Shown: piece after piece, positions 2,187 through 20,698 of the stretch
Position numbering within the stretch: position 1 is the stretch's first letter
Layout: each line of letters starts with the position of its first letter
Virus record (IMG/VR): IMGVR_UViG_3300032030_000047
Coordinates: 23,624-87,623 of that record
DNA length: 64,000 nt
Source: a virus
Lineage: Duplodnaviria; Caudoviricetes
Reading direction: 5' to 3' (one strand)
Notes under the pieces: model-generated
What the model saw: the letters and a program-made list of their open reading frames with translations, nothing else
What the model was told of the DNA's origin: nothing
The model's database searches: none
Program-made: the position numbers and the translations under genes

Positions 2187-2278
2187 ATATCAAAGAGGGC
2201 ACGTTTTATAGTGCGGTGCCCGAGCACTAACACTCTTTCACCAAATGCTGCAGAGGTGAAGGGAATGTTGAAGTAGCG

Positions 2279-2396
2279 CGGGAGATAGAGGAGTTGAACC
2301 TCTCTAGCGCGGTTAATTGTCTGATATAGGGCCTGCCCCTATTATATCTCTTTGGTATCAGGCCAGCCGCGTGCTAATCCGATTAGCGAATCTCCC
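2279..2396 (-). tRNA. trnN: tRNA-Asn(GTT) interrupted by a 47-nt insertion (2317-2363) between anticodon positions 34 and 35
   Basis: GGGAGAT/ATCTCCC acceptor, G73, GCTA/TAGC D stem, AGAGG-TTCAACT-CCTCT T arm; removing the insert gives CGCGG-CT-GTT-AA-CCGCG. Confidence 0.8.
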
Positions 2397-2415
2397 ATAT
2401 CTTTCTTACAAATAT

Positions 2416-2444
2416 ATTATAATATAATTTTGTAAGAAAGTCAA
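2416..2444 (-). promoter_or_regulatory. sigmaA-type promoter upstream of tRNA-Asn/Glu and the ncRNA region
   Basis: TTGACT-17 nt-TATAAT. Confidence 0.75.
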
Positions 2445-2447
2445 TGA

Positions 2448-3053
2448 TTAAATTTTTTCCCATTCTTCATCGGAATAAGAATTAATTTCTTTTTTTGTCC
2501 TTGGCAAATTCATACTGTCACACCATTTACGAATACTGTTATCTTCTACTCCAAATTGTTTTCCAATTTGAGTAAAAGGCATAGTTCGAATTAATTGCTT
2601 TAATTCTTCTCGTGAAGGTCTTTCACAAGCTCTTCTAGCCTTTGCTGCACAACTTGGACAGCGAATCGCGGCAGAATCTATTTGACAATGGCAATCAATA
2701 CAATAATTTAATTTAGCAGTCATTTTATCATTACGTTCATTAATTAATCTTTGTGCTAATTCATTATTGAACACATGCTCCGTTGGAGCATCATAATAAC
2801 CGCTATGCACTCCTCTATGACAATTCGCGCATAATAAAAAACATTTTTTTACTTCATTTAAGTCAGTTTCAATATCATGACAAGTTCCTCTTGAAGATAT
2901 TCCATAATCCTTTTTAGTCGGGTCTTCGTGATGAAATTCTAATGCGTCTGCGAATAAATCAAAACCGCATATCTGACATTTTCCACCTAAAACCTAAATA
3001 AGATTTTGTTTTCTTCTTCTACGATAATTACTTACATCTTCTGCTCTACTCAT
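2448..3053 (-). CDS. HNH endonuclease (201 aa, 1 TAG)
   Basis: AGGAGG RBS; KCQICG...LEFHH...LLCANCHRGVH, then a C-terminal CxxC/HTH region; needs TAG readthrough at NLI*VLGG. Confidence 0.85.
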
Positions 3054-3136
3054 AATAATTCCTCCTATGAATTAAAATTATGGCCGGTAATAGGAGTACC
3101 TTCATCTCGTTGGTCATGACTCCAACGCTACCCAAA

Positions 3137-3255
3137 CTAGACGTACTCATAACCGCGCTTCTGCCAATTGAGCGACCATCCAATGGCTGGATGGGTTGGA
3201 TTCGAACCAACACTTGACGGGCTCCCAAAGCGAAGAAATATTGCTGATACGTCTA
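3137..3255 (-). tRNA. Candidate circularly permuted tRNA (TGG anticodon): 3' half 3231-3184 precedes 5' half 3182-3153
   Basis: Acceptor CCATCCA-G-CCA-T-TGGATGG pairs 7/7; joining the halves gives CGGGC-TT-TGG-GA-GCCCG; flanks TAGACGTA/TACGTCTA pair. Confidence 0.6.
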
Positions 3256-3258
3256 AAG

Positions 3259-3330
3259 CGACCTTACGCAGAATTGAACTGCGGTTTCAGGCGTGACAAG
3301 CCTACGTAATTACCACTATACGATAAGGCC
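3259..3330 (-). tRNA. trnD: tRNA-Asp(GTC) copy 1
   Basis: GGCCTTA/TAAGGTC, G73, TAGGC-TT-GTC-AC-GCCTG, CGCAG-TTCAATT-CTGCG. Confidence 0.9.
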
Positions 3331-3382
3331 AGATGGCGCTTTCGCGCCGTGCATACTAAAAGGTATGCTGTTATGATCAGAG

Positions 3383-3454
3383 CGACCTTACAGGGAATCG
3401 AACCCTGGTTTTCCGGTAGACAGCCGGATGTAATAACCTCTATACGATAAGGCC
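3383..3454 (-). tRNA. trnD: tRNA-Asp(GTC) copy 2
   Basis: GGCCTTA/TAAGGTC, G73, TCCGG-CT-GTC-TA-CCGGA, CAGGG-TTCGATT-CCCTG. Confidence 0.92.
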
Positions 3455-3625
3455 ATATAATGCCGAGCACACCCTCGGCTTGGACTATTAGGGCCGTACC
3501 AATACTGGCGCGTATGCTTTAAACTTCTATCACCCTACTGTAAGAGATTATAGTGAGTAGTCGCTCACTAGCAGTAGGTTGCTAGCCGCGCATCGGTTTA
3601 GTCACCGTTTTTGCTAAGGTGAACG

Positions 3626-3698
3626 TAGCGGGAACGGGATTCGGACCCGTGTTTGTTGGGTATGAGCCAACCGTGCTAGACCTCTGTACTATCCCGCG
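3626..3698 (-). tRNA. trnM: tRNA with CAT anticodon, initiator(fMet)-like
   Basis: CGCGGGA/TCCCGCT with unpaired 1:72, GTTGG-CT-CAT-AC-CCAAC, A73. Confidence 0.8.
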
Positions 3699-3729
3699 AT
3701 AAAATTGCCCTACTCCCAACTTCTCATGG

Positions 3730-4107
3730 GTACGCCGCATATGGAATCGAACCATCTTCTACGCCATCTCTTGGCGTTTGGGAACTCCATTCCCACCTAC
3801 GGTTTTCGGGCGCTATACCAAGTCTGCGCTTGGACTACGTGTAATTATCCTCAGTGTCACTGAGTCTCGTTTTACATCCGCCGATGCCATACGTATGTAG
3901 GAGTTCCTTTGCATTCATGTAGCGTTGGATAGCCATACAAATCAATCCACAGCCTAGCCGAATATTCCTTTATTGAGCCTTCACACTGCTCAGGGTGGAG
4001 AGTCTAGGTATACCGCCTCCCTATTCGCGTGTCACCTAATTGTATTTAAGGGCCGACTAACAACGACTGCCCCTGCATCTTTTACCTCACGGCTGGCTTG
4101 ATGCGGC
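3730..4107 (-). ncRNA. About 380-nt candidate RNA closed by a tRNA-like acceptor plus T-arm domain
   Basis: 5' GCCGCAT (4107-4101) is complementary to ATGCGGC (3740-3734), which follows ATGG-TTCGATT-CCAT; internal hairpins; no ORF with an RBS. Confidence 0.4.
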
Positions 4108-4112
4108 CATAG

Positions 4113-4185
4113 TCCGCCACCAGGGACTCGAACCCTGAACCAATCGGATATAAGCCGAGTGCTCCACCAATTGAGCTTGTGGCGG
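4113..4185 (-). tRNA. trnI: tRNA-Ile(TAT)
   Basis: CCGCCAC/GTGGCGG, A73, GCTC/GAGC D stem, loop CT-TAT-AT, CAGGG-TTCGAGT-CCCTG. Confidence 0.88.
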
Positions 4186-4314
4186 TTATAATGCAAGTTA
4201 TTAGGATTTTATTTCTGCACTTAAACGTTTTTATTGAGGTATCTCTAGCGGGACTCTTGGCACTTGCTCCCCATTCCCAGTCCAAACTGTCATCTTCCCT
4301 CATTCAACATAATT

Positions 4315-4343
4315 ATTATACAATAATTTCTGCTGAAAGTCAA
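4315..4343 (-). promoter_or_regulatory. sigmaA-type promoter for the tRNA cluster
   Basis: TTGACT-17-TATAAT with extended -10 TG. Confidence 0.75.
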
Positions 4344-4350
4344 ATATTAG

Positions 4351-4533
4351 TTAATCAAAGAGTTCAGAAAGTCCTTCTGTAGAAAAGCCTGCGGATGCGA
4401 GAAATCTTGCAAAAGCTTCACACACTTCATCGCGCGGAATACCATTTTCATTTTCTACATCAAAATGAATCTCATTTCCAGAAACATTGCCATCTTCGTC
4501 CTCAAATTCATACCAGAAACTAATTCTTTCCAT
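4351..4533 (-). CDS. Hypothetical protein (acidic, 60 aa)
   Basis: ORF with GGAG RBS, tightly packed after the upstream gene. Confidence 0.65.
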   Translation of the reverse strand: MERISFWYEFEDEDGNVSGNEIHFDVENENGIPRDEVCEAFARFLASAGFSTEGLSELFD

Positions 4534-4536
4534 CTT

Positions 4537-4797
4537 TTACTCTCCTTCCCTTTCTTCATTAATTATAGCACAAATTTCTTCTCTAGTCAAATACTCATCT
4601 TCCAATTCATCATAAGAAAAATTCATAATAAAATCGTCCAACATAGCTTCTCCTTTCAGATCAAGAAATTTATGTTTGCGATTCTGTTCGCAGTAAGGAC
4701 ATGAACCATGATTTCGACAAGAATAATCAAATACTTTCGAGCCATGATAGGGCTTCCGATGTTCTTTCCCAGACTTAATAGCCTTATCCAGTGCCAT
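4537..4797 (-). CDS. Hypothetical protein with CxxHxxCxxC motif
   Basis: AGGAGG RBS directly after the 4820-4848 promoter; SCRNHGSCPYC. Confidence 0.75.
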   Translation of the reverse strand: MALDKAIKSGKEHRKPYHGSKVFDYSCRNHGSCPYCEQNRKHKFLDLKGEAMLDDFIMNFSYDELEDEYLTREEICAIINEEREGE

Positions 4798-4819
4798 CTC
4801 TCACCCTCCTTACATATAT

Positions 4820-4848
4820 ATTATACACGAAATTTGAAATAAAGTCAA
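4820..4848 (-). promoter_or_regulatory. sigmaA-type promoter
   Basis: TTGACT-17-TATAAT with extended -10 TG. Confidence 0.8.
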
Positions 4849-4869
4849 ATAAAAAATTCCGTAAATTTG

Positions 4870-5185
4870 ATTAGCTAGTGGCGCTAGTGCTCAAAGATAC
4901 GGAAAATTATGGCGCTGAGGTTCGCTATTCCTCTGCCATCGGGCGATATGTCGTGTCGCCTTACGCCTCTCTTCACACCTCAAGGATTGGTGAATGCACA
5001 TCCGTAGCATCAGTACGAACGAGGACTTTCGTGCTCGAATTAACGCTTATAGATATTTTACAGACGCTATAAGTCGTTGGATACTTTGCTTTCCTAGGCA
5101 AGCTAAGACATAGTATCAGTGTCTGAAGTACTTATACGGTGCTTTCATACCGCTTCTCTATTGTCGCGATAGGCTAGAGAAGAAC
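4870..5185 (-). ncRNA. Candidate about 310-nt multibranch structured RNA downstream of tRNA-Gly
   Basis: Stems TTCTCTA/TAGAGAA, CTTATAG/CTATAAG, CGAGCAC-GAAA-GTCCTCG, GGCGA/TCGCC, ATGGC/GCCAT, TACGGA/TCCGTA; no credible ORF. Confidence 0.4.
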
Positions 5186-5190
5186 CTAAG

Positions 5191-5261
5191 AGCACCATGC
5201 GAGACTTGAACTCGCCGCATCTGCTTGGAAGGCAGACATATTTCCGCTATACGAATGGTGC
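5191..5261 (-). tRNA. trnG: tRNA-Gly(TCC)
   Basis: GCACCAT/ATGGTGC, U73, TCTGC-CT-TCC-AA-GCAGA, GCGAG-TTCAAGT-CTCGC. Confidence 0.9.
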
Positions 5262-5278
5262 AAATAGCCCGAAGGCTA

Positions 5279-6202
5279 TTATCTATGTCGACGTTTTACT
5301 TCTTCTATTAGACTTTGCTTTAAATATATACGATATAATTTATTCCACACCATTTCATAAAATTCGGGCTTTACTAAATAGTAACATACTATACGTAGCC
5401 ATACTTCAGGTGTATTAGTGCGTCCTGAAATTTTAAAATACCGAATCCCCTTATCAGAAAGCTCTCGCACTCTGTCTAAAGTAACCATATGTTCGCGCGC
5501 GAAAATACCTGCAACACATTCATCTGCAGAAGGTGAAGAACCAGCAGAATCGCAATGAAGAACTTGCTCTTCTTCTGTAAGAGGCAAATTTTTATACATT
5601 TTACTTAACTGTAAATAGTGTTTCGATCTTTCAGGACAATGACTACGACAAGGCTCTGCACAAACAACTTCAATATTATTCAAATGTTTCAATTGTTTAA
5701 TATATTCGTCATCATTATTACAGTTGTAATTCATGACATAGATATTGTTTTTAGTTAATTCATTAACTTTGTCTATATCAGTAATATTTAAAGTAGTAGA
5801 ATAAATAATATCTAATTGTGGATATTCTCTTTCCAAATACTGCTTTAGTATCGGAGAAAACAAGGTTACAGCATCGTGCGGGCGCATATAAGTATGTAAA
5901 AAGTTATTACAATCTGGGTCTAAGACATCATGTTCATCTAAAAGCAAATTAGTACATACATGTCGTATTTGCATAGGTGTTGTATTAATCCATTGCATAA
6001 TATCTTGAATTGGCGTAGTATTAATAATATTTTGCGCCTCTCGACCACCGTTCCACATTAGATATGGTGGAAAATCATATACGTTGTCCATTACATGATC
6101 TGCGATAAATTGCTCTGGATATTGTTGTTTATATTCATATAATAATTTTACCAAAGGAAATTGCCGAATATATCCAGGAATTGAAAATAATTTATCAGGC
6201 AT
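5279..6202 (-). CDS. U32-family-like Fe-S protein (307 aa)
   Basis: EPCRSHCPERSKH Cys cluster, a later C...C pair and FKISGR resembling the U32 xKIxGR motif. Confidence 0.55.
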   Translation of the reverse strand: MPDKLFSIPGYIRQFPLVKLLYEYKQQYPEQFIADHVMDNVYDFPPYLMWNGGREAQNIINTTPIQDIMQWINTTPMQIRHVCTNLLLDEHDVLDPDCNNFLHTYMRPHDAVTLFSPILKQYLEREYPQLDIIYSTTLNITDIDKVNELTKNNIYVMNYNCNNDDEYIKQLKHLNNIEVVCAEPCRSHCPERSKHYLQLSKMYKNLPLTEEEQVLHCDSAGSSPSADECVAGIFAREHMVTLDRVRELSDKGIRYFKISGRTNTPEVWLRIVCYYLVKPEFYEMVWNKLYRIYLKQSLIEEVKRRHR

Positions 6203-6647
6203 TGTGTGTCTCCAATATTTTTTTTAATTCAGATAAATCTCTCTATTTTTGTATAAAATAAGATAATATTTCACGCGTAACCAAGAATAATAATTCTTGT
6301 AATAAGAATGAATTTGCTTCCTTAGGCAAATTATCATATATATTTAAGACTATATCGACATGACGCGGTTTTCGCGCCAAAGCACGCAAAAGAAAGTATA
6401 ATTCTAAATACTATATAGCTATTGGATCTGTAATATAATATAATTCTGCATACTGTTTTGTAAACTGGACAATATAATCTCTTAATCGTACATAATCAGT
6501 AGTATCTAGATTGCTTTCATAAAATAAATTTCCCCAGTTAATATATGACGGGGCTATCCAAGAATTTAAGTATGAGGACATTGTATCAACAGAAGGTACT
6601 TTAAATTGCTTCATAGCATAAAGTGCCCTTAATTTGCTAACATTCAT
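6195..6647 (-). CDS. Hypothetical helical protein (150 aa, 2 TAG)
   Basis: TAG readthrough extends it to a TGA overlapping the next start; N-terminus MNVSKLRAL resembles the upstream gene's MDVTELRLL. Confidence 0.7.
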
Positions 6648-7153
6648 TCAGATATATATTTTTCAGCGAGAGTCATACGATCATATTCTTGCTCTTGCTC
6701 TAGTTCAGACAGTAATTGATCAATTTCTTCATCGTCCCCAATACTGTGAATTATTAAAGCTAATACATATCTATATTTAATTTCCGTTTTTAATTGTGTT
6801 ATTTCTGTTTTATCCGATTCAACTTGAAAAGCTTCTTTTAATTGCGGCAAATATTCTATATTAATACCTTGAATTTGAAAGATGAATAAAGAAAAGAAAT
6901 GACATAATACTGTGCGTTCTCCTTCAGTATAGTATTCTTCATATACTTCATCTACAATAGGCTTAAAATAATTATAATCGCGCGCATAATCTATTAAATA
7001 TGCCTCATTACGAATTAAACCAATTACACTAAAAATAGCTCCCATTGGATATTTAAAACGTGGAATATAATTTTTTATTAGCTATATTTCATCTTCATTA
7101 GGATTTCTTTTAGCATTAAAAATCCTTAATAAGCGTAACTCTGTAACATCCAT
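6644..7153 (-). CDS. Hypothetical helical protein (169 aa, 1 TAG)
   Basis: True start has an AGGAGG RBS at about 7160; the frame stays open through one TAG into the annotated 133-aa ORF. Confidence 0.75.
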
Positions 7154-7165
7154 TTAATTTCCTCC

Positions 7166-7879
7166 TTAACCATTCGGATTGTAACCCCAAGCAAATGAAC
7201 ATCCGCCATTAAATGAAGTACACCAACCATTGCAATTAGTTGAACATGTGTCACCGCATCCCTGACAAGCATTACTGCAGCCTGTACATCCTTTGCAACT
7301 ACCGCTACAACTGCCACTACAAGAACCAGTGCATGTATTACTGCAACCTTGACAGCTACCTTGACAGCCACCACTACAAGAACCAGTACAAGTACCACTA
7401 CATCCTTTACAAGTGCCAGTGCATGTATTACTGCAACCTTGGCATCCGCCACTACAAGAACCAGTACAAGAACCGGTACAACTCCCACTACATGTACCAG
7501 TACAACTGGTACAGCCACGACAAGCACCTGTACATGTACTATAACAAAGCCCAGTGCATGAACTATTACAATCGGTCGAATTGGCCGTTAAGGAATAATT
7601 CTCATTAGATGTCAATCTAGTAGCCGCGGCTTGAATAGCATATACTAAACTGCCTTGATTAGCTGTTAGTCCAGTTGGGCTAATACGATTAATATTACCT
7701 ACTGTTTCATTAAAATGAGAAATTTTAACAGGACTTCCTGCTGCCATAGTTTCGCTCCAGCCGGTATTATAAGCAGCAAGTGATCCGTTAAAGCGTCTGC
7801 GATACATTTCATTATTAACTCGTGTTTTTAAAGCTTGCATATCACTTGCTGTTAAACTATTTCCAGCTGTTAACGCCAT
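7166..7879 (-). CDS. CXXX-repeat modification target: fibre-like N-terminal domain plus 33-Cys Gly/Ser/Thr-rich repeat
   Basis: C-terminal about 134 aa is CXXX/CXX repeats with small flanking residues; starts 6 nt after the radical SAM stop. Confidence 0.8.
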   Translation of the reverse strand: MALTAGNSLTASDMQALKTRVNNEMYRRRFNGSLAAYNTGWSETMAAGSPVKISHFNETVGNINRISPTGLTANQGSLVYAIQAAATRLTSNENYSLTANSTDCNSSCTGLCYSTCTGACRGCTSCTGTCSGSCTGSCTGSCSGGCQGCSNTCTGTCKGCSGTCTGSCSGGCQGSCQGCSNTCTGSCSGSCSGSCKGCTGCSNACQGCGDTCSTNCNGWCTSFNGGCSFAWGYNPNG

Positions 7880-7885
7880 GACTTA

Positions 7886-9196
7886 TCACTCCTCGGAATG
7901 TTCAAAATCCGCCAACGTGAGCAACATATCATACTCGTCGTCGTCAATTAGATATTTTGCTGTTGTACGGTCTAAATAAACAGGCATTCGTTTTTCTGAA
8001 TGTAACTGTCTAAAAAATTTATTTAAATAATAACTATTAGCTAAAGAGCGAGCGCGTTGCATCCAACAAAGACCTGTATCTCGTTTGTCTAAAATACCTC
8101 CAAACTTTTGGTAATTCCAAGCTGCACACCAAGAACAACCAGAAGCAACGGAACAATTAAAACATTCATCTGTAGATTGAGTACGTCGATTAATTGCTTT
8201 CATTTTATACCAATAATCTTTTTCTTTTTCTGTCTGATAAATTCCATGATCTACATTGCCTATAATAATAGGATCTACTTCTGTGCCTAAAGAACTAGGC
8301 ATATAGCGTAGACATGGATATGCATTTCCATCAGGGTCAAAAGCCAACATATCTCCAGTACCACCGCACCAGTTAGTTAAATTACTACTGAGAAGTGGCT
8401 TGCCATAAAATTCTCCAAACATACTCGAAAAAACACCTTGCTTAGATAAAATTTTATCTGCAAGCTGTTTTAATTGTATATAATATATCTTTGCTTCCTC
8501 TATGGTCCATTTACGTTCATTTATTGGATTACCAACAATAAAAGCGCATTCTTTATCAACAAAAAAATCTACTATTTCACTCAGCATAGGCAAATTTTCT
8601 GGTGAAATTGTAATTTTTGTACCAGGTACTTGGTGTCTTACTGTTCGCCAATCTTCATACGCGGCAATAGCTCTATCAAAGCTACCATTGCCATCATAAT
8701 CCTTTCTACAAGCATCATGTACTTGTTTTGGGCCATCAATAGTAATGCAGAGACTTAAGAAACTTAAGAATTCATCTACATACTTTTGAAATGCATCTGT
8801 AAAATAGAGTAAGCCATTGGTAGAAATGTTAAATCGAAAGTTTGTTGTCCACGGATGATCTAACTCTATACATTTATTGAGAAAATATCTACTGCCATAC
8901 TGAATAACGTCCATATTCATCAGAGGTTCGCCGCCGATAAATTCAATAATAATACCTTTAGTATGATGATTAATTAAAGTATTTGGATCGTTTTTCGCAT
9001 AGGCTTCAAATAGTAAGTCCATTCCTTTTTTCATGACTTCTTTTGTCATGAATTTATGTCCTTTATTAATTTGATAACAGTAGGAGCAATTTAAACAACA
9101 ATCATCAGTTACTTGAAACGTTATAGTCGGACAATTGACTTTAGGGTCTGCTGACCTATAACGTTTCATGATATAATTATGAAACTCGTGAAACAT
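7886..9196 (-). CDS. Radical SAM/SPASM peptide maturase, CXXX-repeat target family (436 aa)
   Basis: ITFQVTDDCCLNCSYC (CxxxCxxC), FIGGEP, STNG, ITIDG, NWCGG...YPC, ECFNC...GCSWC...C SPASM cysteines. Confidence 0.9.
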   Translation of the reverse strand: MFHEFHNYIMKRYRSADPKVNCPTITFQVTDDCCLNCSYCYQINKGHKFMTKEVMKKGMDLLFEAYAKNDPNTLINHHTKGIIIEFIGGEPLMNMDVIQYGSRYFLNKCIELDHPWTTNFRFNISTNGLLYFTDAFQKYVDEFLSFLSLCITIDGPKQVHDACRKDYDGNGSFDRAIAAYEDWRTVRHQVPGTKITISPENLPMLSEIVDFFVDKECAFIVGNPINERKWTIEEAKIYYIQLKQLADKILSKQGVFSSMFGEFYGKPLLSSNLTNWCGGTGDMLAFDPDGNAYPCLRYMPSSLGTEVDPIIIGNVDHGIYQTEKEKDYWYKMKAINRRTQSTDECFNCSVASGCSWCAAWNYQKFGGILDKRDTGLCWMQRARSLANSYYLNKFFRQLHSEKRMPVYLDRTTAKYLIDDDEYDMLLTLADFEHSEE

Positions 9197-9489
9197 TAAT
9201 TATAAAACTCCAATGTATGCTGCGCGAAGTTAAAACTAAAATTCATCCCTGCTCCCTGAGGACGATATTTATTAGCAATTTCATTCTTAAGTTTTTCCAA
9301 ACGAATAGAAAGTTCAATTGCGGCATCCCATTTCTTATCCAGATAAGAAATTTTCAGGCCATCTACTCCTTCATTATAATTATACAGTAGATAACTTAAT
9401 ACGCCCATATAACCATTGTACTCGTCAAAAAGTATCTCTACCTTTTCAATGTCCTCGCTAGAAACATCTACAACTACTCTGTCTTCCAT
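9196..9489 (-). CDS. CXXX-system-associated small protein (97 aa)
   Basis: Start MEDRVV with AGGAG RBS; stop/start overlap with the rSAM gene; paralog of 11375-11647 (YNxYMxxLxYL...YxDKKW). Confidence 0.7.
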   Translation of the reverse strand: MEDRVVVDVSSEDIEKVEILFDEYNGYMGVLSYLLYNYNEGVDGLKISYLDKKWDAAIELSIRLEKLKNEIANKYRPQGAGMNFSFNFAQHTLEFYN

Positions 9490-9522
9490 ATCCTTTAATC
9501 TCCTTTTATATAAAATAATAAG

Positions 9523-9610
9523 CAGCCCCTGAAAGATTCGAACTTTCATAACCTCGGCAGAGGATATAACGGTTTTAGAGACCGGCGTCTTGCCATTAGA
9601 CGAAGGGGCT
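9523..9610 (-). tRNA. Amber suppressor tRNA (anticodon CTA) with a 21-nt variable arm
   Basis: AGCCCCT/AGGGGCT acceptor, G73, GTCT/AGAC D stem, CCGGT-CT-CTA-AA-ACCGT, GAAAG-TTCGAAT-CTTTC. Confidence 0.9.
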
Positions 9611-9648
9611 ATAAAAGGGCTGATTCTCGGCTCAGCCCAGAGCCGTCA

Positions 9649-10057: not shown

Positions 10058-10086
10058 ATTATACACTGAATTTTGAAAAAAGTCAA
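10058..10086 (-). promoter_or_regulatory. sigmaA-type promoter upstream of the ORF / suppressor tRNA / rSAM2 block
   Basis: TTGACT-17-TATAAT with extended -10 TG. Confidence 0.75.
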
Positions 10087-11378
10087 GTTTTAGATAGAAG
10101 CAATAATTTATTATATTCTTTCAATGTAATCAAATGCATTGCAATATCAACAGGTAAATACATCTTTTTACGTTTGGCCATATTATGTTTTCTATAATAT
10201 TTATTCCAATAATAAACGCCAGCAAGAGCTTCTGCACGGTGCATCCAACATATGTTGGTACTACGTTTATTGTATGTGCCAAATTCATTATAGTTTTCAG
10301 CTGAGCACCAGGCGCAACCTGACGCGACAGGACAATCTAAACATTCCTGTGTTGATTGTGACTGTCGAGTAACTTTTTTCATATCATCATATATAGCCTT
10401 ATATTCTGGAGTGTTATATATACCATGGACATTGCCGATTACTATAGGTTTACGCTCTGGACTTAGTGAACTTGCCATATAACGTAAACAAGGATACGCC
10501 AGTCCTTGTGGGTCAAAAGCTAACATTGCAGATGTACCGCCACAATAGTTATTAGTCTCACTTTCTGGAACTGGTTCTCCTTTGAAGTCAGAAAATAAGG
10601 AACTTTCTGCGCCTTCTACTTCAAGCAATCTATCTGCTAACTTAATTAGTAATTTATAATATAACTATGCTTCTTCTTCTGTCCATTTATGCTCAAATAT
10701 AGGATTAGCATGAATTGTTGTACAACCCTTAGATAAAAAGAAATCAAATATTTCTCCGATTTTAGGTAGGTTTTCAGGCGCAATTGTAACTTTAGTATCT
10801 GGTATATTATGCTTCTTTACAAGAAACCAATCATTCCACGCGGCCATAGCTCTATCGAAACTGCCAGTACCGCCCAAATCTACTCGACAAAGGTCGTGTA
10901 TATCTTTGGGCCCGTCTATTGTAACATTCATACTGATAAGGCTATGATATTTATCTAAGAATGCTTGTACCTTTGGCTCAAAATAGAGTAAACCATTTGT
11001 ACTGATGGAAATACGGAAATTGGTAAGCCAAATATGATCGCGTTCACAGCATTGTTGGATAAAATATTCTACAATATAATCCATCACATCTACATTCATA
11101 AACGGTTCGCCGCCGATCATATCCAGAATGATACCATATGTATGTTTATTGATGACCATATTCTCGTCATTCTCTTCATACAATTTGAATAGTAAGTCAA
11201 CTGCGTCCTTAGCCACTTCTTTACTCATCATCGCATGACCCTTATGCGTCTGATAACAGTAAGAACATTTTAAACAACAATCATCTGTCACCTAAAAAGT
11301 GATATTGCGGCATTCTGCCTTTGGATCCTCAAAAGAATATATAGATCTTACTTCCTCTGAATAGTCATGACTTTTCAT
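10083..11378 (-). CDS. Radical SAM/SPASM peptide maturase paralog, CXXX-repeat target family (431 aa, 2 TAG)
   Basis: ITF*VTDDCCLKCSYC aligns with the paralog's ITFQVTDD; ATGA overlap with the upstream gene; joins the 208-aa and 181-aa fragments. Confidence 0.9.
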
Positions 11379-11647
11379 TCTTTGTAAAACACCACCTGGG
11401 TATTATCAAAGTCAAATTCATATCGATCCCATTCGCCCTCAGGTTTATATTTAGCTTCAATTGCTGATTTAGCAAGATCAAGTTCAATCCATATATCTGC
11501 TGCTTCATTCCATTTCTTATCGTAAATATCTGTACTAAAAGTATTAGCAGCCAGATATTCTAACATACTCATATAGGCATTGTATTTGTAAAATAGACGC
11601 CGCACATTTTCACATTCTTCATGTGTAATATCAATTGCTTGCTTCAT
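11375..11647 (-). CDS. CXXX-system-associated small protein (90 aa)
   Basis: ATGA-coupled to the rSAM gene; paralog of 9196-9489. Confidence 0.7.
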   Translation of the reverse strand: MKQAIDITHEECENVRRLFYKYNAYMSMLEYLAANTFSTDIYDKKWNEAADIWIELDLAKSAIEAKYKPEGEWDRYEFDFDNTQVVFYKE

Positions 11648-11708: not shown

Positions 11709-11737
11709 ATTATATCATATATGGAGGAAAAAGTCAA
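11709..11737 (-). promoter_or_regulatory. sigmaA-type promoter for the rSAM1 pair
   Basis: TTGACT-17-TATAAT. Confidence 0.75.
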
Positions 11738-12141
11738 ATATTTATTTCCTGCCACCCCGCTGGGTAAGCACTTGGTGACCAAATATTATTGTCAATTGCG
11801 CTTTCATATACTTTGCCTTCAAACATAACGCGGTCGCCGCGCATATATGTGTTAGTACTATCAGGCTGTTCCCATTCTGGAATTACATCTGGATCTGGGA
11901 TTAGTACTTTAGCCCAGAGACTTGGTGCGGCAGTAGGAGTCCATGCTTCTTGCGCCGCATGTGATTGAAGACATTTGTATAATACATTTTCGTATTGTAC
12001 TCTGTCTCCTTGTAAATATGCGGCAGTAGCGTTCCAGACAGGAAATAACTGGACTGCTTCAATTGAGTCCTCATCGGATAAGGATAGGGCTGCTTTTTCT
12101 ATATAAGGGCGTAGCTTGCGCGCTAATTCAAGTAATGTCAA
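11734..12141 (-). CDS. Tail-associated protein with carbohydrate-binding (CBM5/12-like) repeats
   Basis: W...Y..GDRV.Y...LYKC.Q.H and W.QP....Y..GDRV.F.G..YES..D.N.WSP motifs. Confidence 0.7.
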   Translation of the reverse strand: MTLLELARKLRPYIEKAALSLSDEDSIEAVQLFPVWNATAAYLQGDRVQYENVLYKCLQSHAAQEAWTPTAAPSLWAKVLIPDPDVIPEWEQPDSTNTYMRGDRVMFEGKVYESAIDNNIWSPSAYPAGWQEINI

Positions 12142-12387
12142 TTACTCCACCCCCAATAGTATTTTTGTGGCGGCAAGCTCCTCCTGTAAAGAGGAGATGC
12201 TTGCGGCCTGCTATAACAAATATTCATCCTTGCCATATTCTTTATAGTTATATTTGTAACCAGAAACGGTATGCTCGCCAACTTCTTCTTCATATGGCTC
12301 AACATTAGAAGCGATAAAGACAGAAGTGGCTGTAATTTCGATTGGTTGTGGCTCAACTGTACCATAAATAACTCCGTAATCTTTCAT
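12142..12387 (-). CDS. Small tail-associated protein (81 aa, 1 TAG)
   Basis: GAGG RBS; reads through EYLL*QAAS to a TAA abutting the next start. Confidence 0.7.
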
Positions 12388-12392
12388 CTTTA

Positions 12393-14339
12393 TCAACCTC
12401 CATAGTGTTGCCGCCATTTATTAATGTTGGCTTCGTAGGTTGCGTTCTTAGACGGAATATACATAATACGTCCATTGAAGTAACGTAGTGTCGCATTCGC
12501 GGCAACGTCTGCGCTATAGTTAAATGGGCCTGCTCCATCACCGGAACTATAAAGGCCGCCAATACCGAATAGGTTAGTACCATTTAAGGCGGTATTAGTC
12601 CAAAGTGCGTCACCGACTGGGAAAGCACTATTGGCATTATTGGCGCACTCAATTGGTAGATAAGCCCAAGTATAGTCTGGATTCTGATAACCCATCGCGG
12701 AAATCCAGTTTGGCGCTGCGCCAGGAAGCTGGAATCCTAGTGGAGTTTCACCATGATATGGAATACCACCTTCAGAGTTGCTACCGCCGCGAGTTGTAAT
12801 ATTAGCAATTAGCCGCCACATGCTACCCCATGGATTTTCCATACCACGATAGCTAATTGCGCGTAAGCCTGCAGTTGTAACGGTTTCCTTAGTACCATCA
12901 CGGTCAATAACAGTTTGAGGAGCGGCGCCAGTGCCGTTACCGATACTGGAAGTAGAACCAGTAATAATAGCGCAACTAGTGGCGTTATTGCGAGCAACAT
13001 TGACTACACCTTTTTCTAGGGCAGATTGTCCATTCATAGTACCAAATTCAACCATCTCTAGCATCTGATTGGCAGATTCAAATTCGAGGTTGGTAAGCTG
13101 CCAACCTTCACCACGATTAGATGCCATTGTTTTAACTTGGTTTAGGTTTAGATTTTTGCCGATACCAGTAAAGATTTTTGCGCCCGCAATAGAGCTGAGT
13201 TTATCTTCGGAGAAAGTAACATTCTCATCGTTTAAAAGATATTCATCTGCGCTAGTGTCATAGACGCTGCCTTCAAATGCGGGAAGAAGAACGTAATCGA
13301 GTTCTTCGTTTCCTAGCTTGAATAGAGGATGAAGCTCAAAGCCTGCGCGCTCATCTGCACTTAGAATTAGACTTTCTTTTTGTACGGTTACGCCGCGGCT
13401 GCCTGCGCTATCTTTGATAAAAGTGCGAGAGTAGTAGAACTTGGGCTGGTAAATCATTACCTGGCCATTAGAGCCATCTTCGCGGTAATTAGAATCGCCA
13501 TAGAAGGCCGTAATTGTGCCATCATCGGCTACATTACAACGCATGCGGCCGCCGTACATGGTGTATCCATTGAAATCGCTTCCGGCCCTACGACTTGCGG
13601 CATCCTGAGTGCGCTCAAAGGACTTATTTTCGTAGTCGATTAGTAAGCCGAGTGTGCCATCGGCGCTGTAAGTACCGGCTTTTACTAGCGCCTTGATGAT
13701 TGCTTCTTGTGTGGCATCACCGGCTTTGATGTTTCCATCTGAGCCAACAATAACAATCTTACCGGCGTTTTCAGTGCCAAGGTTGCTTACTCCGCCAGAG
13801 CTGGAGCCGCCGCCAGATGGAATGCGCGCGATTGCGCTATCAACATAGGCTTTAGTTGCAACTGTGGATGTATCGGCTTTCTGCGCGAGTGCGGCAGTAA
13901 TAGCCTTTTGAGTCATGCTACCATCTTCGTTATCGCCTGTAGATTTATATAATTTCACTACCTCGGGCATAGTAAAGGGTGTGGCGTTGTCAGGATAGAG
14001 AACTTTATAGCCACGACCATTGTAGGTGTCGGATGAGGTCTGGGTTAGCTCAAAAGCTAACTTGGAAATCTCATCATCTACGTCTTCTGTTGTAAGAGTA
14101 TTAATTTGTGCTTCTTGCGCTGTTTCTAAAGCTTCCTGCGCAGTTGCAAGCAAATCCGCGGCTTCAGATTTTGCCGTTGCAATTTCAGTCGCAGCATCTT
14201 CTACTGTTTGAATTGCCGCTGCTGCATCCTATTCTGCTTTTTCTGCCTTTGCCGCTGCGGCATTAGCCTTAGCAACATAAGTTTCGGTTTTTCCTTGTGG
14301 AGTCATTGCTTTTGCAAGCATTACATCCAATATATCCAT
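12393..14339 (-). CDS. Tail fibre/receptor-binding protein with C-terminal CLec/FGE-like domain (648 aa, 1 TAG)
   Basis: TAATG-coupled start MDILDV; SYRGMENPWGSMW and terminal GG.Y..G..AG.F...GR motifs. Confidence 0.65.
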
Positions 14340-14560
14340 TAGCTTTCACCCCCGTTTTCTTCCTCTGTAACGGGAGTCATACTTTTCCATTGTTTTTGGC
14401 TGTTAGCAATAAATACTTCCATAGTATCTACTACTATTGCGACAGATCCCAACGTAATATACTTTGGATCAATAGTCGCTAAATCTGCAGCGGTGTCGCA
14501 GAAATGCTCATAAGTAATTATATTATCAGAGCTACCTCTTTTACTCATTATTGCCGCCAT
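14339..14560 (-). CDS. Small tail-module protein (73 aa)
   Basis: GGAGG RBS; TAATG overlap with the next gene. Confidence 0.65.
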   Translation of the reverse strand: MAAIMSKRGSSDNIITYEHFCDTAADLATIDPKYITLGSVAIVVDTMEVFIANSQKQWKSMTPVTEEENGGES

Positions 14561-15749
14561 TCTATTCGCCTCCATTTATCCAAGCATAAGATATAGTATC
14601 ATTTTCTACAGTTACTTGCAATTGATAAGTACCTGCTGTAGTTGGCATATCAGGCATACTGCCCCATAATACAGTTTTAGCATCATTCTCTCCAACAATA
14701 ACACGTACGAAATATGCACCAGTCTAATCAGGTGCGCCTATTTTTGTAGCAAGTGGAACTAATGGTTGGTCATTATCATCAACGCTTTCTAACGCACTAG
14801 CAAGAGTGTTTGGAGTAAGATAACCTGCATCATTTTGCCATGTACTTACATTAGTTGGTAGATTAGTTAAATCATTATAACTGCCACTAGTTGCCACCAG
14901 TTTCAAAGCATCTAATTTGGTCTTATCCGCGGCCGAAAGTAAACCATTTGTAGAAGTGGTCGCAACTTGATAATTACCACTTAGGATACCTTCATTAGTA
15001 ATGGTTAAATTATCACCAACCTAAATGCCGCCAAGAGTTGAAGTTGTTGCAGGGCTTAATGATATAGTCCGTGTTGATGCAAGAGTTCCGCCACCTGTTA
15101 ATCCAGTTCCGGCTGTAATTGAAATATTACTTAAAGTGGTACTTACATAATTTTCTAAGCGTCCTTCTGGAATTAAATCTAACGTATTATATGTAGCTAA
15201 TGCACTACTTAATGTTACTTGGTTAGCGGTAATTCCATTAGTAACTGCAATATTATTAGCATTGACTGCTTGTAATGTCGTGACACCAGTAACTCCTAGT
15301 GTGCCGCTTAGACTAGCATTAGTTGCGCTCAAATTACCATTTAAGGTAGTTGCGCCTGTTACAGTTAAGGTATTACTAACTGTTGTGGCTAATGATAACG
15401 TAATTGCTTCTGCCGCTATGATTTTATCTGTTACTATTAAATTATTAGTAATGGTTATATTGCCTGAAGCACTAATATTTGCAGCAGAAATGTTTCCACT
15501 AGCAGTAAGATTAACAAAAGAAGGGCTCGCTTGAAAATTTAATATACCATTCTCAATAGTAAAATTGTCGTTATTAGCAATTTTGATTATACCCCAAGTA
15601 TTTTTTGAGGCTACATATCTATCAGCATCATTTTCAGCAATAAATACTTTTGTCAAACTTAAAATCTAACTTTCCATATTATTTAACTTGGTAGCAGTTA
15701 AAATATCTCCTGATTTCCAAGTTGTTCTTGTATAAGCCGTTAATGCCAT
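14541..15749 (-). CDS. Tail fibre protein (402 aa)
   Basis: MALTAYTRTTWKSGDILTATKLNNME fibre N-terminal motif; ATTSTLGGI*VGDNL and GLLSAADKTKLD repeats; continuous with TAG=Gln. Confidence 0.7.
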
Positions 15750-17948: not shown

Positions 17949-20450
17949 TTAGAGTTCTATAAATTCTGATGAGAGTAATTCAGAATTTTTTCTAATTTTC
18001 GCTTTGTCCATTTGTTCAATTATATCATAAAAATTAGCCTAGCCTTGTTTTGTAAACTAGGCCATATTAGATGTAATATCATATAATCGAAAATTAGTAA
18101 GATAAAGGTCAGTTCCTAATGTACCAGTACTAGTATAGCCCCAACCAAAAGTTAAGTGGCGATAACTTAAATAAGTTGTCCCTGCTACATAGGCTGAATA
18201 CGTAGTAGTACATGGTTTACTAATAGCGTCTGTTATTTTAAAAATATAGAAACAATCTTTTTCCCCATTAAAATCTGCTGGAATACCTTCATTTACAATC
18301 GTAGTTGGTGAAGGCTGAACACCGCCGCCACTCCAACCCATATTGTTAGTCCAGCCCCATGTAGTAGCATTAGAACTTTTTCCGCGAACGTGGAAAGTCG
18401 CGATATAAGTATGATTTTGCTATAAATGCCACCAATTATCTCGAGTGGTATCATAAGCTGCAACAGTATTTACAGATTGATTAACCAATTGAAGTCCGCC
18501 CCACATGGTATTACCGTTAGCAGATTGAGTAAGATTAGGCGGCCGATAAATATGATATCCTTCTTCTACTAAAGTAACTTGACAATTACTTTGAGTATAT
18601 CGGCTTAAGCCGTTAGTAAATTCTAACTTAGTTCGGCTTAACTCAGCAGGAAATAGAATATTATCTTGATGCTCGATAAATTCATATGCATGGGTACCAC
18701 CTTTATTATCAATTTTGGCACCAGTATGATATAGTTGGAGAATATCATCGGTCGGTAGGGCGGTTACATAGATGCGGAAATCACTTAATTCTCCAGAAGT
18801 AGTCCTGTGTGCACCGCCCGCTAAAGAATAGAATGGAAAAATATGGCTAAAAGATTTTAATGCTCCACTCTAATTAGCAGTAACTTTAGATACTCCATCT
18901 TTATAAAAAATTAATTGGCTTCCATTATATACTAAAGCATAGTGATGCCATTCATTTAGAGTTAAGTGGCTGCTAACATTGATACGCACGCAAGTGCCGC
19001 TAACATTGCAGCAATCAAAACAGGAATCACGCATATTAGCAGCAGTTGTATAATAATCAGTAGGAAGACTATTATTTGTAGTGCTAAAAATACCACTTGT
19101 CTGCAGACCCCAAGATGTTGGTTTCATCCACCAACTAAAAGTAAGCGCTGTAGATTCAGGAATATTACATTGTCCTGATAATAAATAATTAGATGAATTG
19201 GCTGCTTGATTATTTTTAATACAAGCATCATAGCGTGCAGATGTGGATGATAAAATTGCGGATGTATCATGTAATGTACCATGATGTCCATAACCGCTGC
19301 TATCAAAGACTGATGTTGGCATATAAGAATTATAATTATCGTCTAATGGAGAGGGACACCAAGCTGTTGGAGTAGAACTTTTTTCTAATTTAAAATTCTT
19401 AAAATAATAAGTGCCAACTAAACCACTAAAACCTAGATGCAACGATATATTACCATATCCAGTGCCAGGAGCAGCCCATGTACTAGTATAATAAACCTAT
19501 ATCCATTGGCCTAAAGTAAAGTTACCCTATAATCGTTTGTATCCATTGCCGCTATTAATAAATATAGTTGGTAAAGTAGTCCCTGATTCAACTTTAATTT
19601 CACATGATAATGTATAAGTATCTCCAACTGTAAGTTTTGCTCCTACATTATCATTACTATTTTTAGCAAATCCTATAGAAGCATAATTACCATTTCCAGA
19701 AGCAGCAATAATTTTTAAACTACCATCATCCATATATGTTCGTGTGATACCAGAAGCATTTCCTCCACTAGTGACTTTATGACTTTCTAATATAAAATTT
19801 TCACTACCATATAGAAAACCAATGGAATCTAACTTATAATGCAACACTAACCCCTAACTAATTTCCTTAACTTCGGCCGCAGAGAGGCAGTGCGAATATA
19901 CACGAAAATCATTAACATAACCTGTTAAAAATTCATTACCGCCTGGATGATCACAACCTATTTCTAAAAAGTTCGCGGAAGTAATATCTGTCACTGTTAC
20001 TCCCGCTTCTGCTAAGGTCTTACTAGTAACTTTAGTGCCATCTAAATATGTTGTGACAGTAGTATCATCTAAAGTGCAACATACATGGTGCCATACACTA
20101 GTATTGGCAATTGTGCCGCCGCTTACATATTTATAAGTGCTACCTCCTGCAAATTGCCATCCGGAAGTATAAAGTGTCATATGAGCTTGCCCAGGACCGC
20201 TATCATGTGAAATACCGCCAAGAGCGACTACAGTACCTGTGCTTTTAACCCATGCACAGACTGAAGTATTTTTTATTGTAGTCATTTCTTCTGGCATAGT
20301 CATTTTTATCCAAGTGCTTCCATTAAAGTAATAGCACTTTCCAATTTTACCACTATTATCTACTGTAGCACCATTATTAGTTACGGTAACGCCGCTACAT
20401 CCTATGTTATCTAATGTGCCATTAAGCGGCAACCATACCTATAAACTCAT
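17949..20450 (-). CDS. LamG/concanavalin-like and CBM-like multidomain tail protein (833 aa)
   Basis: MSL*VWLPLNG start; two LamG repeats (WHHV...YLDG...DFRVY and WHHY...YKDG...DFRIY); four track ORFs are in one frame. Confidence 0.8.
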
Positions 20451-20698
20451 ATTCTCCCACCTCCAATAGGGGTAATCCTAAAATGGGTTACCCCATTTTG
20501 CATCGTGTAGGAGGCTTTCATACAATCTATAAACATCTCCTCTAGTTCATCATCTTTATAAAGGGTGGCGAATGCAAGATTATCATTGGAAAGTTGCCAA
20601 TATATCTAAGAGTCATTACTCTAAATCTCGAATGTACTGTAATTTAAACGCACAAGGCCCTCAAGTTCAGTGCCATCGGCGAGTACAAGTTTATACAT
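20447..20698 (-). CDS. Hypothetical protein (83 aa, with TAG)
   Basis: ATGA overlap with the LamG gene; open with TAG=Gln. Confidence 0.6.

What the first reader, a model, noticed from the sequence alone, without database searches (positions are those of the whole stretch)
7166..7879. The modification target is a fusion of a fibre-like domain and a 33-Cys repeat, not a short leader peptide
Seen: about 103 N-terminal aa carry repeated G-x-x-[LV]-x-[AI]-S-x-[MF] helices (GNSLTASDMQAL, GSPVKISHFNET) and begin MALTA like the tail fibre at 14541-15749 (GDILTATKLNN). The remaining about 134 aa hold 33 Cys in mixed CXXX and CXX spacing, encoded by imperfect DNA tandem repeats (7240-7560) that could expand or contract. 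Inference: a virion appendage with an enzymatically stapled or metal-binding rigid tip, with repeat number as a variable trait.
Basis: partly seen in the sequence, partly recalled or inferred. Interest (0 to 1): 0.78.

Follow-up and report, generated by a model that had tools for sequence, protein, structure and literature searches.

The report
Phage cysteine-ladder protein with adaptor domain
This phage gene encodes a two-part protein: a conserved 103-residue helical head, and a tail with a cysteine every third or fourth residue that a neighbouring radical-SAM enzyme probably cross-links. Comparison with about a hundred relatives suggests, without proof, that it is a modified tail-associated part of the virus particle and not a small secreted peptide.

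Summary
The ORF at 7166-7879 (-) is real. It encodes 237 aa: a Cys-free N-domain (residues 1-103), then 33 Cys spaced CXXX (23 times) and CXX (8 times). The coding DNA carries imperfect 12-nt and 90-nt repeats.

It is the substrate of a phage form of the catalogued but unstudied CXXX-repeat radical SAM system. The maturase matches TIGR04115, and the helper is a remote relative of TIGR04116.

The N-domain defines a phage family with at least 105 clusters at 50% identity. Its length is fixed (103-110 aa), while the Cys tail varies from 14 to about 105 Cys.

The domain models as a three-helix domain with no known relative.

The virion-appendage idea gains independent support:
- The cassette follows tail-fibre genes in several phage lineages.
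- Relatives insert or prepend lectin or adhesin domains (Laminin_G_3, InlB B-repeats).
- One phage shares the ribosome-binding site and first 15 codons with an appendage gene.
- Bacterial targets carry Tat signals where the phage proteins carry the N-domain.

The chemistry (probably thioethers) and virion incorporation are untested. This scan has noted the same system on other DNA many times.

The parts
7166..7879 (-). Target gene, 237 aa: N-domain plus Cys ladder. No TAG codons, TAA stop. It starts 6 nt after the maturase stop.
7571..7879 (-). N-domain, residues 1-103. Cys-free, three predicted helices (11-27, 53-66, 82-93). Family motif LKxRVKAEMxRR.
7199..7570 (-). Cys ladder, residues 104-227: 33 Cys, CXXX 23 times and CXX 8 times, rich in G/S/T. 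It opens with the conserved start motif DCxSSC[ST]GLC. Encoded by imperfect 12-nt and 90-nt repeats.
7886..9196 (-). Radical SAM/SPASM maturase 1 (436 aa), CXXX-repeat target family. It lacks the roughly 90-aa N-terminal part of CteB.
9196..9489 (-). Helper protein 1, about 97 aa, a remote TIGR04116 relative. The longer ORF start at 9549 overlaps the tRNA, so the start at 9489 is more likely.
9522..9610 (-). Amber suppressor tRNA (anticodon CTA). The phage reads TAG as a sense codon, Gln by alignment of the two maturases.
10083..11378 (-). Radical SAM/SPASM maturase 2 (431 aa, 2 in-frame TAG), 54% identical to maturase 1. It has no target gene of its own nearby.
11375..11647 (-). Helper protein 2 (90 aa), a paralogue of helper 1 (32% identity).
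6644..7153 (-). 169-aa protein (1 TAG) directly after the target. A protein of about 170 aa holds this position in most related cassettes. Homology is shown only to L004.
6195..6647 (-). 150-aa protein (2 TAG) of unknown role. A relationship to the 169-aa protein is not supported.
11734..15749 (-). Upstream tail genes on the same strand: a small protein with two CBM_5_12 modules (11734-12141), a tail protein matching phrog_5302 (12393-14339), and a fibre-like ORF (14541-15749).

Best explanation
The 237-aa protein is the substrate of a phage-adapted CXXX-repeat radical SAM system, and it has two modules.

Module 1 is the Cys ladder. It has variable length and evolves fast. The adjacent SPASM maturase or maturases, together with the roughly 90-aa helper, modify it in the anaerobic host cytoplasm. 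The most likely product is many thioether cross-links, which would make a compact structure that does not depend on redox state and resists proteases. This chemistry is inferred.

Module 2 is the 103-aa helical N-domain. It is a phage-specific address or assembly module standing where bacterial CXXX targets carry a Tat or lipoprotein signal. It is retained in the mature protein. It probably docks or oligomerises the protein on the tail or fibre apparatus. This step is also inferred.

Shown here: the two-part architecture, the family, the gene cassette, the tail-module position and the domain fusions. Inferred: the chemistry, virion incorporation and docking.
For: - Architecture: two parts as described.
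- N-domain family: 105 representatives at E <= 1e-3, nearly all with the domain at residues 1 to about 105, followed by a CXXX tail.
- Lengths: N-domain 103-110 aa; tail 70-189 aa, and about 470 aa in L005.
- Maturase: TIGR04115 at 342 bits; the next family, PapB, scores 144. The closest solved structure is CteB, 5WGG.
- Helper: profile matches a true TIGR04116 member at 94.5% probability, E 7e-8.
- Cassette: target, a roughly 170-aa protein, helper and rSAM recur in 30+ viral loci.
- Position: the cassette lies directly after tail or tail-fibre PHROG proteins in several lineages.
- Fusions: InlB B-repeats before the N-domain in L005; Laminin_G_3 between the N-domain and the Cys tail in P0161.
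- Shared start: the L032 target shares its ribosome-binding site and first 15 codons with a 630-aa pre-neck-appendage-like gene.
- Bacterial targets keep the SCxGLC start motif but carry Tat signals instead of the N-domain.
- No conserved protease or exporter lies in the cassette.
- The N-domain models with pLDDT about 90.
Against: - No experimental or proteomic evidence exists for any member.
- The N-domain matches no known fibre, baseplate or other family by sequence or fold.
- The resemblance to this phage's own fibre is at chance level.
- The slot after tail-fibre genes also collects accessory 'moron' genes, so position alone is weak evidence.
- Large folded leaders are known in RiPPs (NHLP, Nif11; from my own knowledge).
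- No TIGR04115 enzyme has a known reaction, to my knowledge. The ladder has no fixed acceptor residue such as PapB's Asp.
- The helper is not visibly an RRE fold.
- Target, maturase 1 and helper 1 have no TAG codons, where about 6.8 would be expected at the structural-gene rate. Their expression or origin may therefore differ from the late structural genes.
Confidence: 0.5

Rival explanations
1. The N-domain is an oversized leader or recognition domain, as in NHLP or Nif11 leaders of proteusins. It presents the Cys core to the maturase and is later removed. The product is a free cross-linked Cys-rich polypeptide, acting as a bacteriocin-like, signalling or metal-binding agent, released when the cell lyses.
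For: - The enzyme family belongs to RiPP-type SPASM maturases.
- The maturase lacks its own N-terminal recognition domain.
- The N-domain holds the most conserved motif of the protein.
- The Cys part is disordered in the unmodified model.
Against: - No protease, cleavage motif or exporter is conserved in the cassette.
- Bacterial targets are modified without this domain and share only the SCxGLC start motif.
- A Laminin_G_3 domain lies between the N-domain and the core in P0161, and adhesin domains precede the N-domain in L005.
- The gene sits inside tail modules.
Confidence: 0.2
2. The protein is a non-virion intracellular or lysis-phase factor. Examples are a thiol, metal or Fe-S binding protein, or a superinfection or host-takeover protein, carried as an accessory gene in the variable slot after the fibre genes. 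The radical SAM enzyme may do chemistry other than thioether formation.
For: - With 33 Cys and small spacer residues the ladder resembles metal-binding sequences.
- The module has no TAG codons, unlike the structural genes.
- The chemistry of TIGR04115 is unknown.
- The slot near fibre and lysis genes is a common accessory-gene site.
Against: - The cassette keeps the same place and strand within tail operons across distant phages.
- Fusions to lectin and adhesin modules, and a start shared with an appendage gene, argue for an extracellular or structural role.
- Bacterial homologues are exported by Tat.
Confidence: 0.2
3. The ORF is a low-complexity artefact or a non-functional repeat expansion.
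For: The DNA is repetitive and alternative frames are also open.
Against: - More than 100 homologous clusters share a conserved N-domain and invariant Cys positions.
- The gene is coupled to its maturase with a 6-nt gap and its own ribosome-binding site.
- Synteny is conserved.
Confidence: 0.02

Closest known systems
Bacterial CXXX-repeat peptide modification system (NCBIfam TIGR04115 maturase, TIGR04116 helper, TIGR04114/04117/04118 and Pfam PF27846 targets, TIGR04119 second maturase)
   Same: - The maturase family is the same by best match (342 bits).
- The helper is a remote homologue of TIGR04116.
- The Cys ladder has the same CXXX/CXX pattern and the same SCxGLC start motif.
The bacterial example seen here is L003.
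   Different: - The phage target carries a 103-aa helical N-domain where bacterial targets carry Tat or lipoprotein signals.
- No TIGR04119 protein is in the window.
- All three HMM scores fall below the curated cut-offs.
- The cassette lies in a phage tail module, often with a protein of about 170 aa.
- No member of either form has been studied experimentally, as far as I know and as far as the paper searches show.
Thioether-forming SPASM maturases: CteB (SCIFF, PDB 5WGG) and PapB (freyrasin, CX3D motifs)
   Same: These are the closest characterised relatives of the maturase: PapB HMM 144 bits, CteB E 8e-23. They share the CX3CX2C motif and the SPASM Cys motifs.
   Different: - The phage enzyme lacks the N-terminal region that in CteB precedes residue 88. 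From memory, that region is CteB's leader-binding domain.
- The substrate is 3-10 times larger.
- The substrate has no fixed acidic acceptor.
Proteusin and Nif11-type RiPP precursors with large folded leaders
   Same: Both have a folded N-terminal part of about 100 aa followed by a radical-SAM-modified C-terminal part.
   Different: - There is no sequence relation to these leaders.
- The cassette has no protease or transporter.
- Relatives carry extra lectin or adhesin domains around the N-domain.
Modular phage tail fibres and appendages with a conserved N-terminal anchor and a variable distal part
   Same: - A constant N-module is joined to a fast-changing distal part.
- The gene follows fibre genes.
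- In L032 the first 15 residues equal those of a pre-neck-appendage-like protein.
   Different: - The target matches no fibre family.
- The N-domain models as three short helices, not a coiled coil.
- The distal part would be built by enzymatic cross-linking, which is not described for phage fibres.

Membership tests
CXXX-repeat radical SAM system | TIGR04115 radical SAM/SPASM maturase next to the target | tested here: inconclusive
   Maturase 1 scores 342.2 bits over the full profile (3-359 of 359) against a cut-off of 350. The next family scores 144 bits. Maturase 2 scored in two pieces, 183.8 and 130.1 bits. This is the best family by far but just under the curated cut-off.
CXXX-repeat radical SAM system | Target with tandem CXXX repeats (TIGR04114 / PF27846) | tested here: inconclusive
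   The pattern is met directly: 23 CXXX and 8 CXX units. The HMM scores are below the cut-offs: TIGR04114 17.1 versus 20, TIGR04117 19.2 versus 50. The local Pfam copy lacks PF27846. Homologues carry a precomputed PF27846 hit.
CXXX-repeat radical SAM system | TIGR04116 helper protein | tested here: inconclusive
   The single-sequence score is 13.6 bits against a cut-off of 50. Of 14 phage helpers, 4 hit TIGR04116, best E 2.9e-4. The helper profile against a true member (L003, 104.6 bits) gives hhalign probability 94.5%, E 7e-8.
CXXX-repeat radical SAM system | TIGR04119 second (SPASM-only) maturase | tested here: not met
   None of the nine neighbouring proteins hit it. It is present in the bacterial locus L003 at 235 bits. 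The rest of the phage record was not scanned for it.
Ranthipeptide/sactipeptide (thioether) maturation | Cys sulphur to carbon thioether bonds in the product | not testable with these tools
   Only enzyme homology to PapB and CteB is available. The ladder has no fixed acceptor residue.
RiPP precursor with removable leader | Conserved cleavage motif plus a protease or exporter in the cluster | tested here: not met
   The junction shows no double-glycine motif. No peptidase or transporter is conserved across 30+ cassettes. The U32-like gene at 5279-6202 is unique to this window.
RiPP precursor with removable leader | RRE (winged-helix) recognition domain in the enzyme or a partner | tested here: inconclusive
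   The maturase aligns to CteB only from CteB residue 88. The helper models as a strand, two long helices and two strands (pLDDT 96.6). Its fold matches are generic helical hairpins, with Z no higher than 8.4.
Phage tail fibre / appendage protein | Sequence or fold match to a known fibre, baseplate or appendage family | tested here: inconclusive
   - PHROGs gives only phrog_6085, of unknown function, on the Cys part.
- The N-domain profile finds nothing in PHROGs or PDB sequences.
- The best fold match has Z 5.9. Weak TssK and IglD rows at Z 4.3-5.4 are within noise.
- Foldseek against the PDB finds nothing.
Phage tail fibre / appendage protein | Gene placed within the tail or fibre module | tested here: met
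   In the window, tail genes lie directly upstream on the same strand. L007, L013, L025, L027 and L038 have tail or fibre PHROG proteins just upstream of the target.
Phage tail fibre / appendage protein | Presence in the virion | not testable with these tools
   No cultured member or proteome was found. The INPHARED protein search gave no match to the target.

The most novel reading that the evidence does not exclude
Phages of anaerobic habitats build a tail appendage whose distal rod is a polypeptide 'ladder' of dozens of radical-SAM-made thioether rings, an enzymatic substitute for disulfides where these are unstable. The 103-aa N-domain is the common plug that mounts ladders of freely variable length, sometimes with lectin modules, on the virion.
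Probability: 0.35. Interest if true: 0.8.

Novelty: new variant of a known kind. Interest (0 to 1): 0.6.

Why it matters
If the reading holds, three things follow:
- It would be the first case of a phage structural protein matured by a radical SAM enzyme.
- It would give a function to the uncharacterised CXXX-repeat system.
- It would define a new modular domain, the N-domain, that is widespread in gut and rumen phages.

It would also offer a testable idea: anaerobe phages replace disulfide stabilisation with enzymatic cross-links and tune appendage length through repeat number. If instead the N-domain is a leader, it would be a new class of large RiPP leader carried by phages.

Tried and rejected
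- Similarity of the N-domain to the window's fibre (14541-15749): BLASTP E 10, no profile hit, N-terminal score within background. Rejected as evidence.
- Internal duplication of the N-domain: hhalign probability 2%. Not supported.
- Known family for the N-domain: Pfam, NCBIfam, PHROGs, PDB sequences, Foldseek PDB and VIA-wide all gave nothing clear. The ESM Atlas listed viral Ig, fn3 and Flg_new proteins as structural neighbours (TM 0.67-0.70). A sequence search for longer proteins found no such fusions, so this stays a lead only.
- Homology among the proteins of about 170 aa that follow the target: three BLAST clusters, hhalign probabilities 6-8%. Not shown. The 169-aa and 150-aa window proteins are not demonstrably paralogues.
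- Helper as a PqqD-like RRE: not seen in the model or the fold search.
- A second target in the phage record for maturase 2: none found in the 87.6-kb record, which is about 48% complete.
- Representative bacterial genomes: a narrow pattern scan found no N-domain. However, two family members carry NCBI names from Clostridia-type genomes.
- INPHARED phages: no match to the target, with the low-complexity filter on.
- Literature: six full-text searches found no paper on the CXXX system or on radical-SAM-modified phage tail proteins. The founding TIGRFAMs paper could not be opened.
- The first alignment (A2) was too diverse for a locus scan.

Full report
**The window**

The window is phage DNA in which TAG is a sense codon.
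- ARAGORN finds a tRNA with anticodon CTA at 9522-9610 (-).
- Long ORFs of up to 3193 aa appear only when TAG is read through.
- The two in-frame TAGs of the second maturase align with Q and K of the first.
- The record is an 87.6-kb IMG/VR contig estimated to be 48% complete.

**The observation**

ORF 7166-7879 (-) encodes 237 aa and ends in TAA.
- Residues 1-103 hold no Cys.
- Residues 104-227 hold 33 Cys at spacings of 4 (23 times), 3 (8 times) and 7 (once). The spacer residues are mostly G, S and T.
- The DNA carries imperfect 12-nt arrays and a 90-nt unit in two copies, 81% matching.

These points are confirmed. The proposed link to the fibre ORF 14541-15749 is not.
- Both proteins start MALTA, but BLASTP gives E = 10 for that stretch.
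- Neither family profile finds the fibre.
- The N-terminal alignment score of 27-30 is inside the distribution between unrelated loci, whose 99.9th percentile is 37.
- The two G-x-x-[LV]-x-[AI]-S motifs each precede a predicted helix and align to each other, but only at hhalign probability 2%.

**The system**

The gene starts 6 nt after a radical SAM/SPASM gene (7886-9196).
- That enzyme matches NCBIfam TIGR04115, the CXXX-repeat target family, at 342 bits over the whole profile. The cut-off is 350, and the next family, PapB, scores 144.
- Upstream, sharing the boundary base 9196, lies a helper of about 97 aa. A second helper and maturase pair sits at 10083-11647. The maturases are 54% identical and the helpers 32%.
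- A profile of 14 phage helpers matches a genuine TIGR04116 protein at 94.5% probability, E 7e-8.
- TIGR04119, the second maturase of the bacterial system, was not found among the neighbours.
- The closest solved structure is the thioether-forming CteB (5WGG, E 8e-23). The phage enzyme aligns only from CteB residue 88, so it lacks CteB's N-terminal region.
- The helper models at pLDDT 96.6 as a strand, two long helices and two strands. Its fold matches are only generic helical hairpins.

**The N-domain is a family**

- An exhaustive profile search with the N-domain alone returned 105 cluster representatives at E <= 1e-3.
- Nearly all full-length hits are 150-237 aa, with the domain at residues 1 to about 105 followed by a CXXX/CXX ladder. 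Many shorter hits are fragments.
- In 19 compared members the N-domain is 103-110 aa, while the tail is 70-189 aa.
- Across 96 non-redundant targets there are 1707 CXXXC and 430 CXXC units, and 14-105 Cys per protein with a median of 24.
- N-domains that are 99% identical carry 25 versus 27 Cys.
- The first ladder motif, DCxSSC[ST]GLC, is nearly invariant. It recurs in a bacterial target.
- AlphaFold2 with 56 sequences gives pLDDT about 90 for residues 1-100, with helices at 11-27, 53-66 and 82-93. The ladder scores below 50.
- No known family matches the domain by sequence or fold.

**Context**

In 31 IMG/VR loci and several other contigs the usual order is: tail or fibre genes, target, a protein of about 170 aa, helper, maturase.
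- The proteins just upstream match tail or tail-fibre PHROGs in at least five lineages:
  - L013, 843 aa, phrog_5073, E 1e-86
  - L025, 571 aa, phrog_26419
  - L027, 251 aa
  - L038, 449 aa
  - L007, 425 aa, phrog_1887, downstream of the tape measure gene

- Most of these phages use the standard genetic code.
- No protease or exporter is conserved in the cassette.
- In the window, the upstream genes on the same strand are a small protein with two CBM_5_12 modules, a phrog_5302 tail protein and the fibre-like ORF.

**Fusions and a shared start**

- L005 encodes one protein with an unassigned N-terminal part, two InlB B-repeat domains (E 3e-25), the N-domain and a ladder. Read with TAG = Gln, it runs to 848 aa with 105 Cys.
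- P0161 has the N-domain, then Laminin_G_3 (E 2.8e-18; it also hits phrog_701, a virion structural protein), then the ladder at 479-724.
- P0072 and P0106 carry extensions of about 135 aa before the N-domain.
- In L032 about 60 nt, covering the ribosome-binding site and the first 15 codons, are nearly identical between the target and a 630-aa protein matching phrog_4775, a pre-neck appendage protein (E 2e-32). The alignment score is 71-74 against a background 99.9th percentile of 37.
- Bacterial CXXX proteins in the same searches begin with twin-arginine or lipoprotein signals. In L003 they sit next to TatA and TatC.

**Reading**

- The enzyme-recognised part appears to be the ladder with its conserved start motif. 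The bacterial targets seen here have that motif, and none of them matched the N-domain profile.
- The N-domain occupies the place of an export signal. It tolerates domains before and after it, and it sits in tail operons.
- This fits a retained address or assembly module of a tail-associated protein better than a removable leader.
- Thioether cross-linking is inferred only from homology to PapB and CteB. No fixed acceptor residue exists in the ladder.
- Nothing here shows virion incorporation.
- The main rival is a large leader, as in NHLP or Nif11 precursors. That comparison rests on my own knowledge.
- Target, maturase 1 and helper 1 contain no TAG codons, where 6.8 would be expected at the rate of the structural genes (P about 0.001). 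That could mean recent acquisition from a standard-code phage or a different expression regime.

**Earlier notes of this scan**

The scan describes the phage CXXX cassette in many other genomes and proposes fibre-tip cross-linking. I treated these notes as leads and tested the fusion and context claims myself.

**Novelty**

The CXXX system is a catalogued bioinformatic family without experimental study, as far as I know and as far as six paper searches show. The phage form with this N-domain is a new variant of that kind.

Noticed in passing
window 7166-9489: Target, maturase 1 and helper 1 (770 codons) contain no TAG, where about 6.8 would be expected at the rate of the neighbouring structural genes (P about 0.001). 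Maturase 2 and the two genes after the target do contain TAG. Most family members are in standard-code phages, so recent acquisition is one explanation.
   Followed up: partly
window 9489-9610: The longest ORF for helper 1 (start 9549) overlaps the suppressor tRNA (9522-9610). Alignment with other helpers favours the ATG at 9489. A terminator-like hairpin lies at 9617-9638 (-) just before the tRNA.
   Followed up: partly
window 5279-6202: This 307-aa protein has a partial Peptidase_U32 match (E 2.4e-9) and has no homologue in any related cassette. It lies next to tRNA-Gly and the tRNA array. U32 relatives include RNA and quinone hydroxylases, so it may serve RNA modification and not the Cys protein.
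   Followed up: no
window 11734-12141: This small 135-aa protein has two CBM_5_12 carbohydrate-binding modules (E 1.9e-21). It lies between the tail protein and the cassette.
   Followed up: no
window 17949-20525: This 858-aa protein (9 TAG) has Laminin_G_3 domains and hits phrog_3545. The same PHROG is hit by the lectin part of the N-domain fusion protein P0161.
   Followed up: partly
L005:1689-4232: The called 529-aa gene ends at a TAG. Read as Gln, the frame continues through another roughly 320 aa of CXX/CXXX repeats, giving 848 aa and 105 Cys. The 168-aa gene called there is probably an alternative-frame artefact.
   Followed up: partly
L032:3100-3200 and L032:7594-7694: About 60 nt, covering the ribosome-binding site and the first 15 codons, are duplicated between the Cys-ladder gene and a pre-neck-appendage-like gene 4.5 kb downstream.
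   Followed up: yes
L027:11424-13814, L036, L031, L037: Some cassettes have enlarged maturase ORFs (796 or 582 aa). In L037 the maturase is split into 334-aa and 307-aa parts with a 143-aa ORF between them, which may be an insertion or an intein-like element.
   Followed up: no
L003 (MT837480.1) 2222-6318: This contig is deposited as 'Bacteriophage sp.' but carries a typical bacterial CXXX operon: a Tat-signal target, a TIGR04115-like maturase, TIGR04119, TIGR04116, then TatA- and TatC-like genes. It may be bacterial DNA.
   Followed up: partly
L006:2902-3570 and 6341-7039; L031; L037: Some phages carry two N-domain/Cys-ladder genes around a single maturase. The window has the reverse, two maturases and one target.
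   Followed up: no
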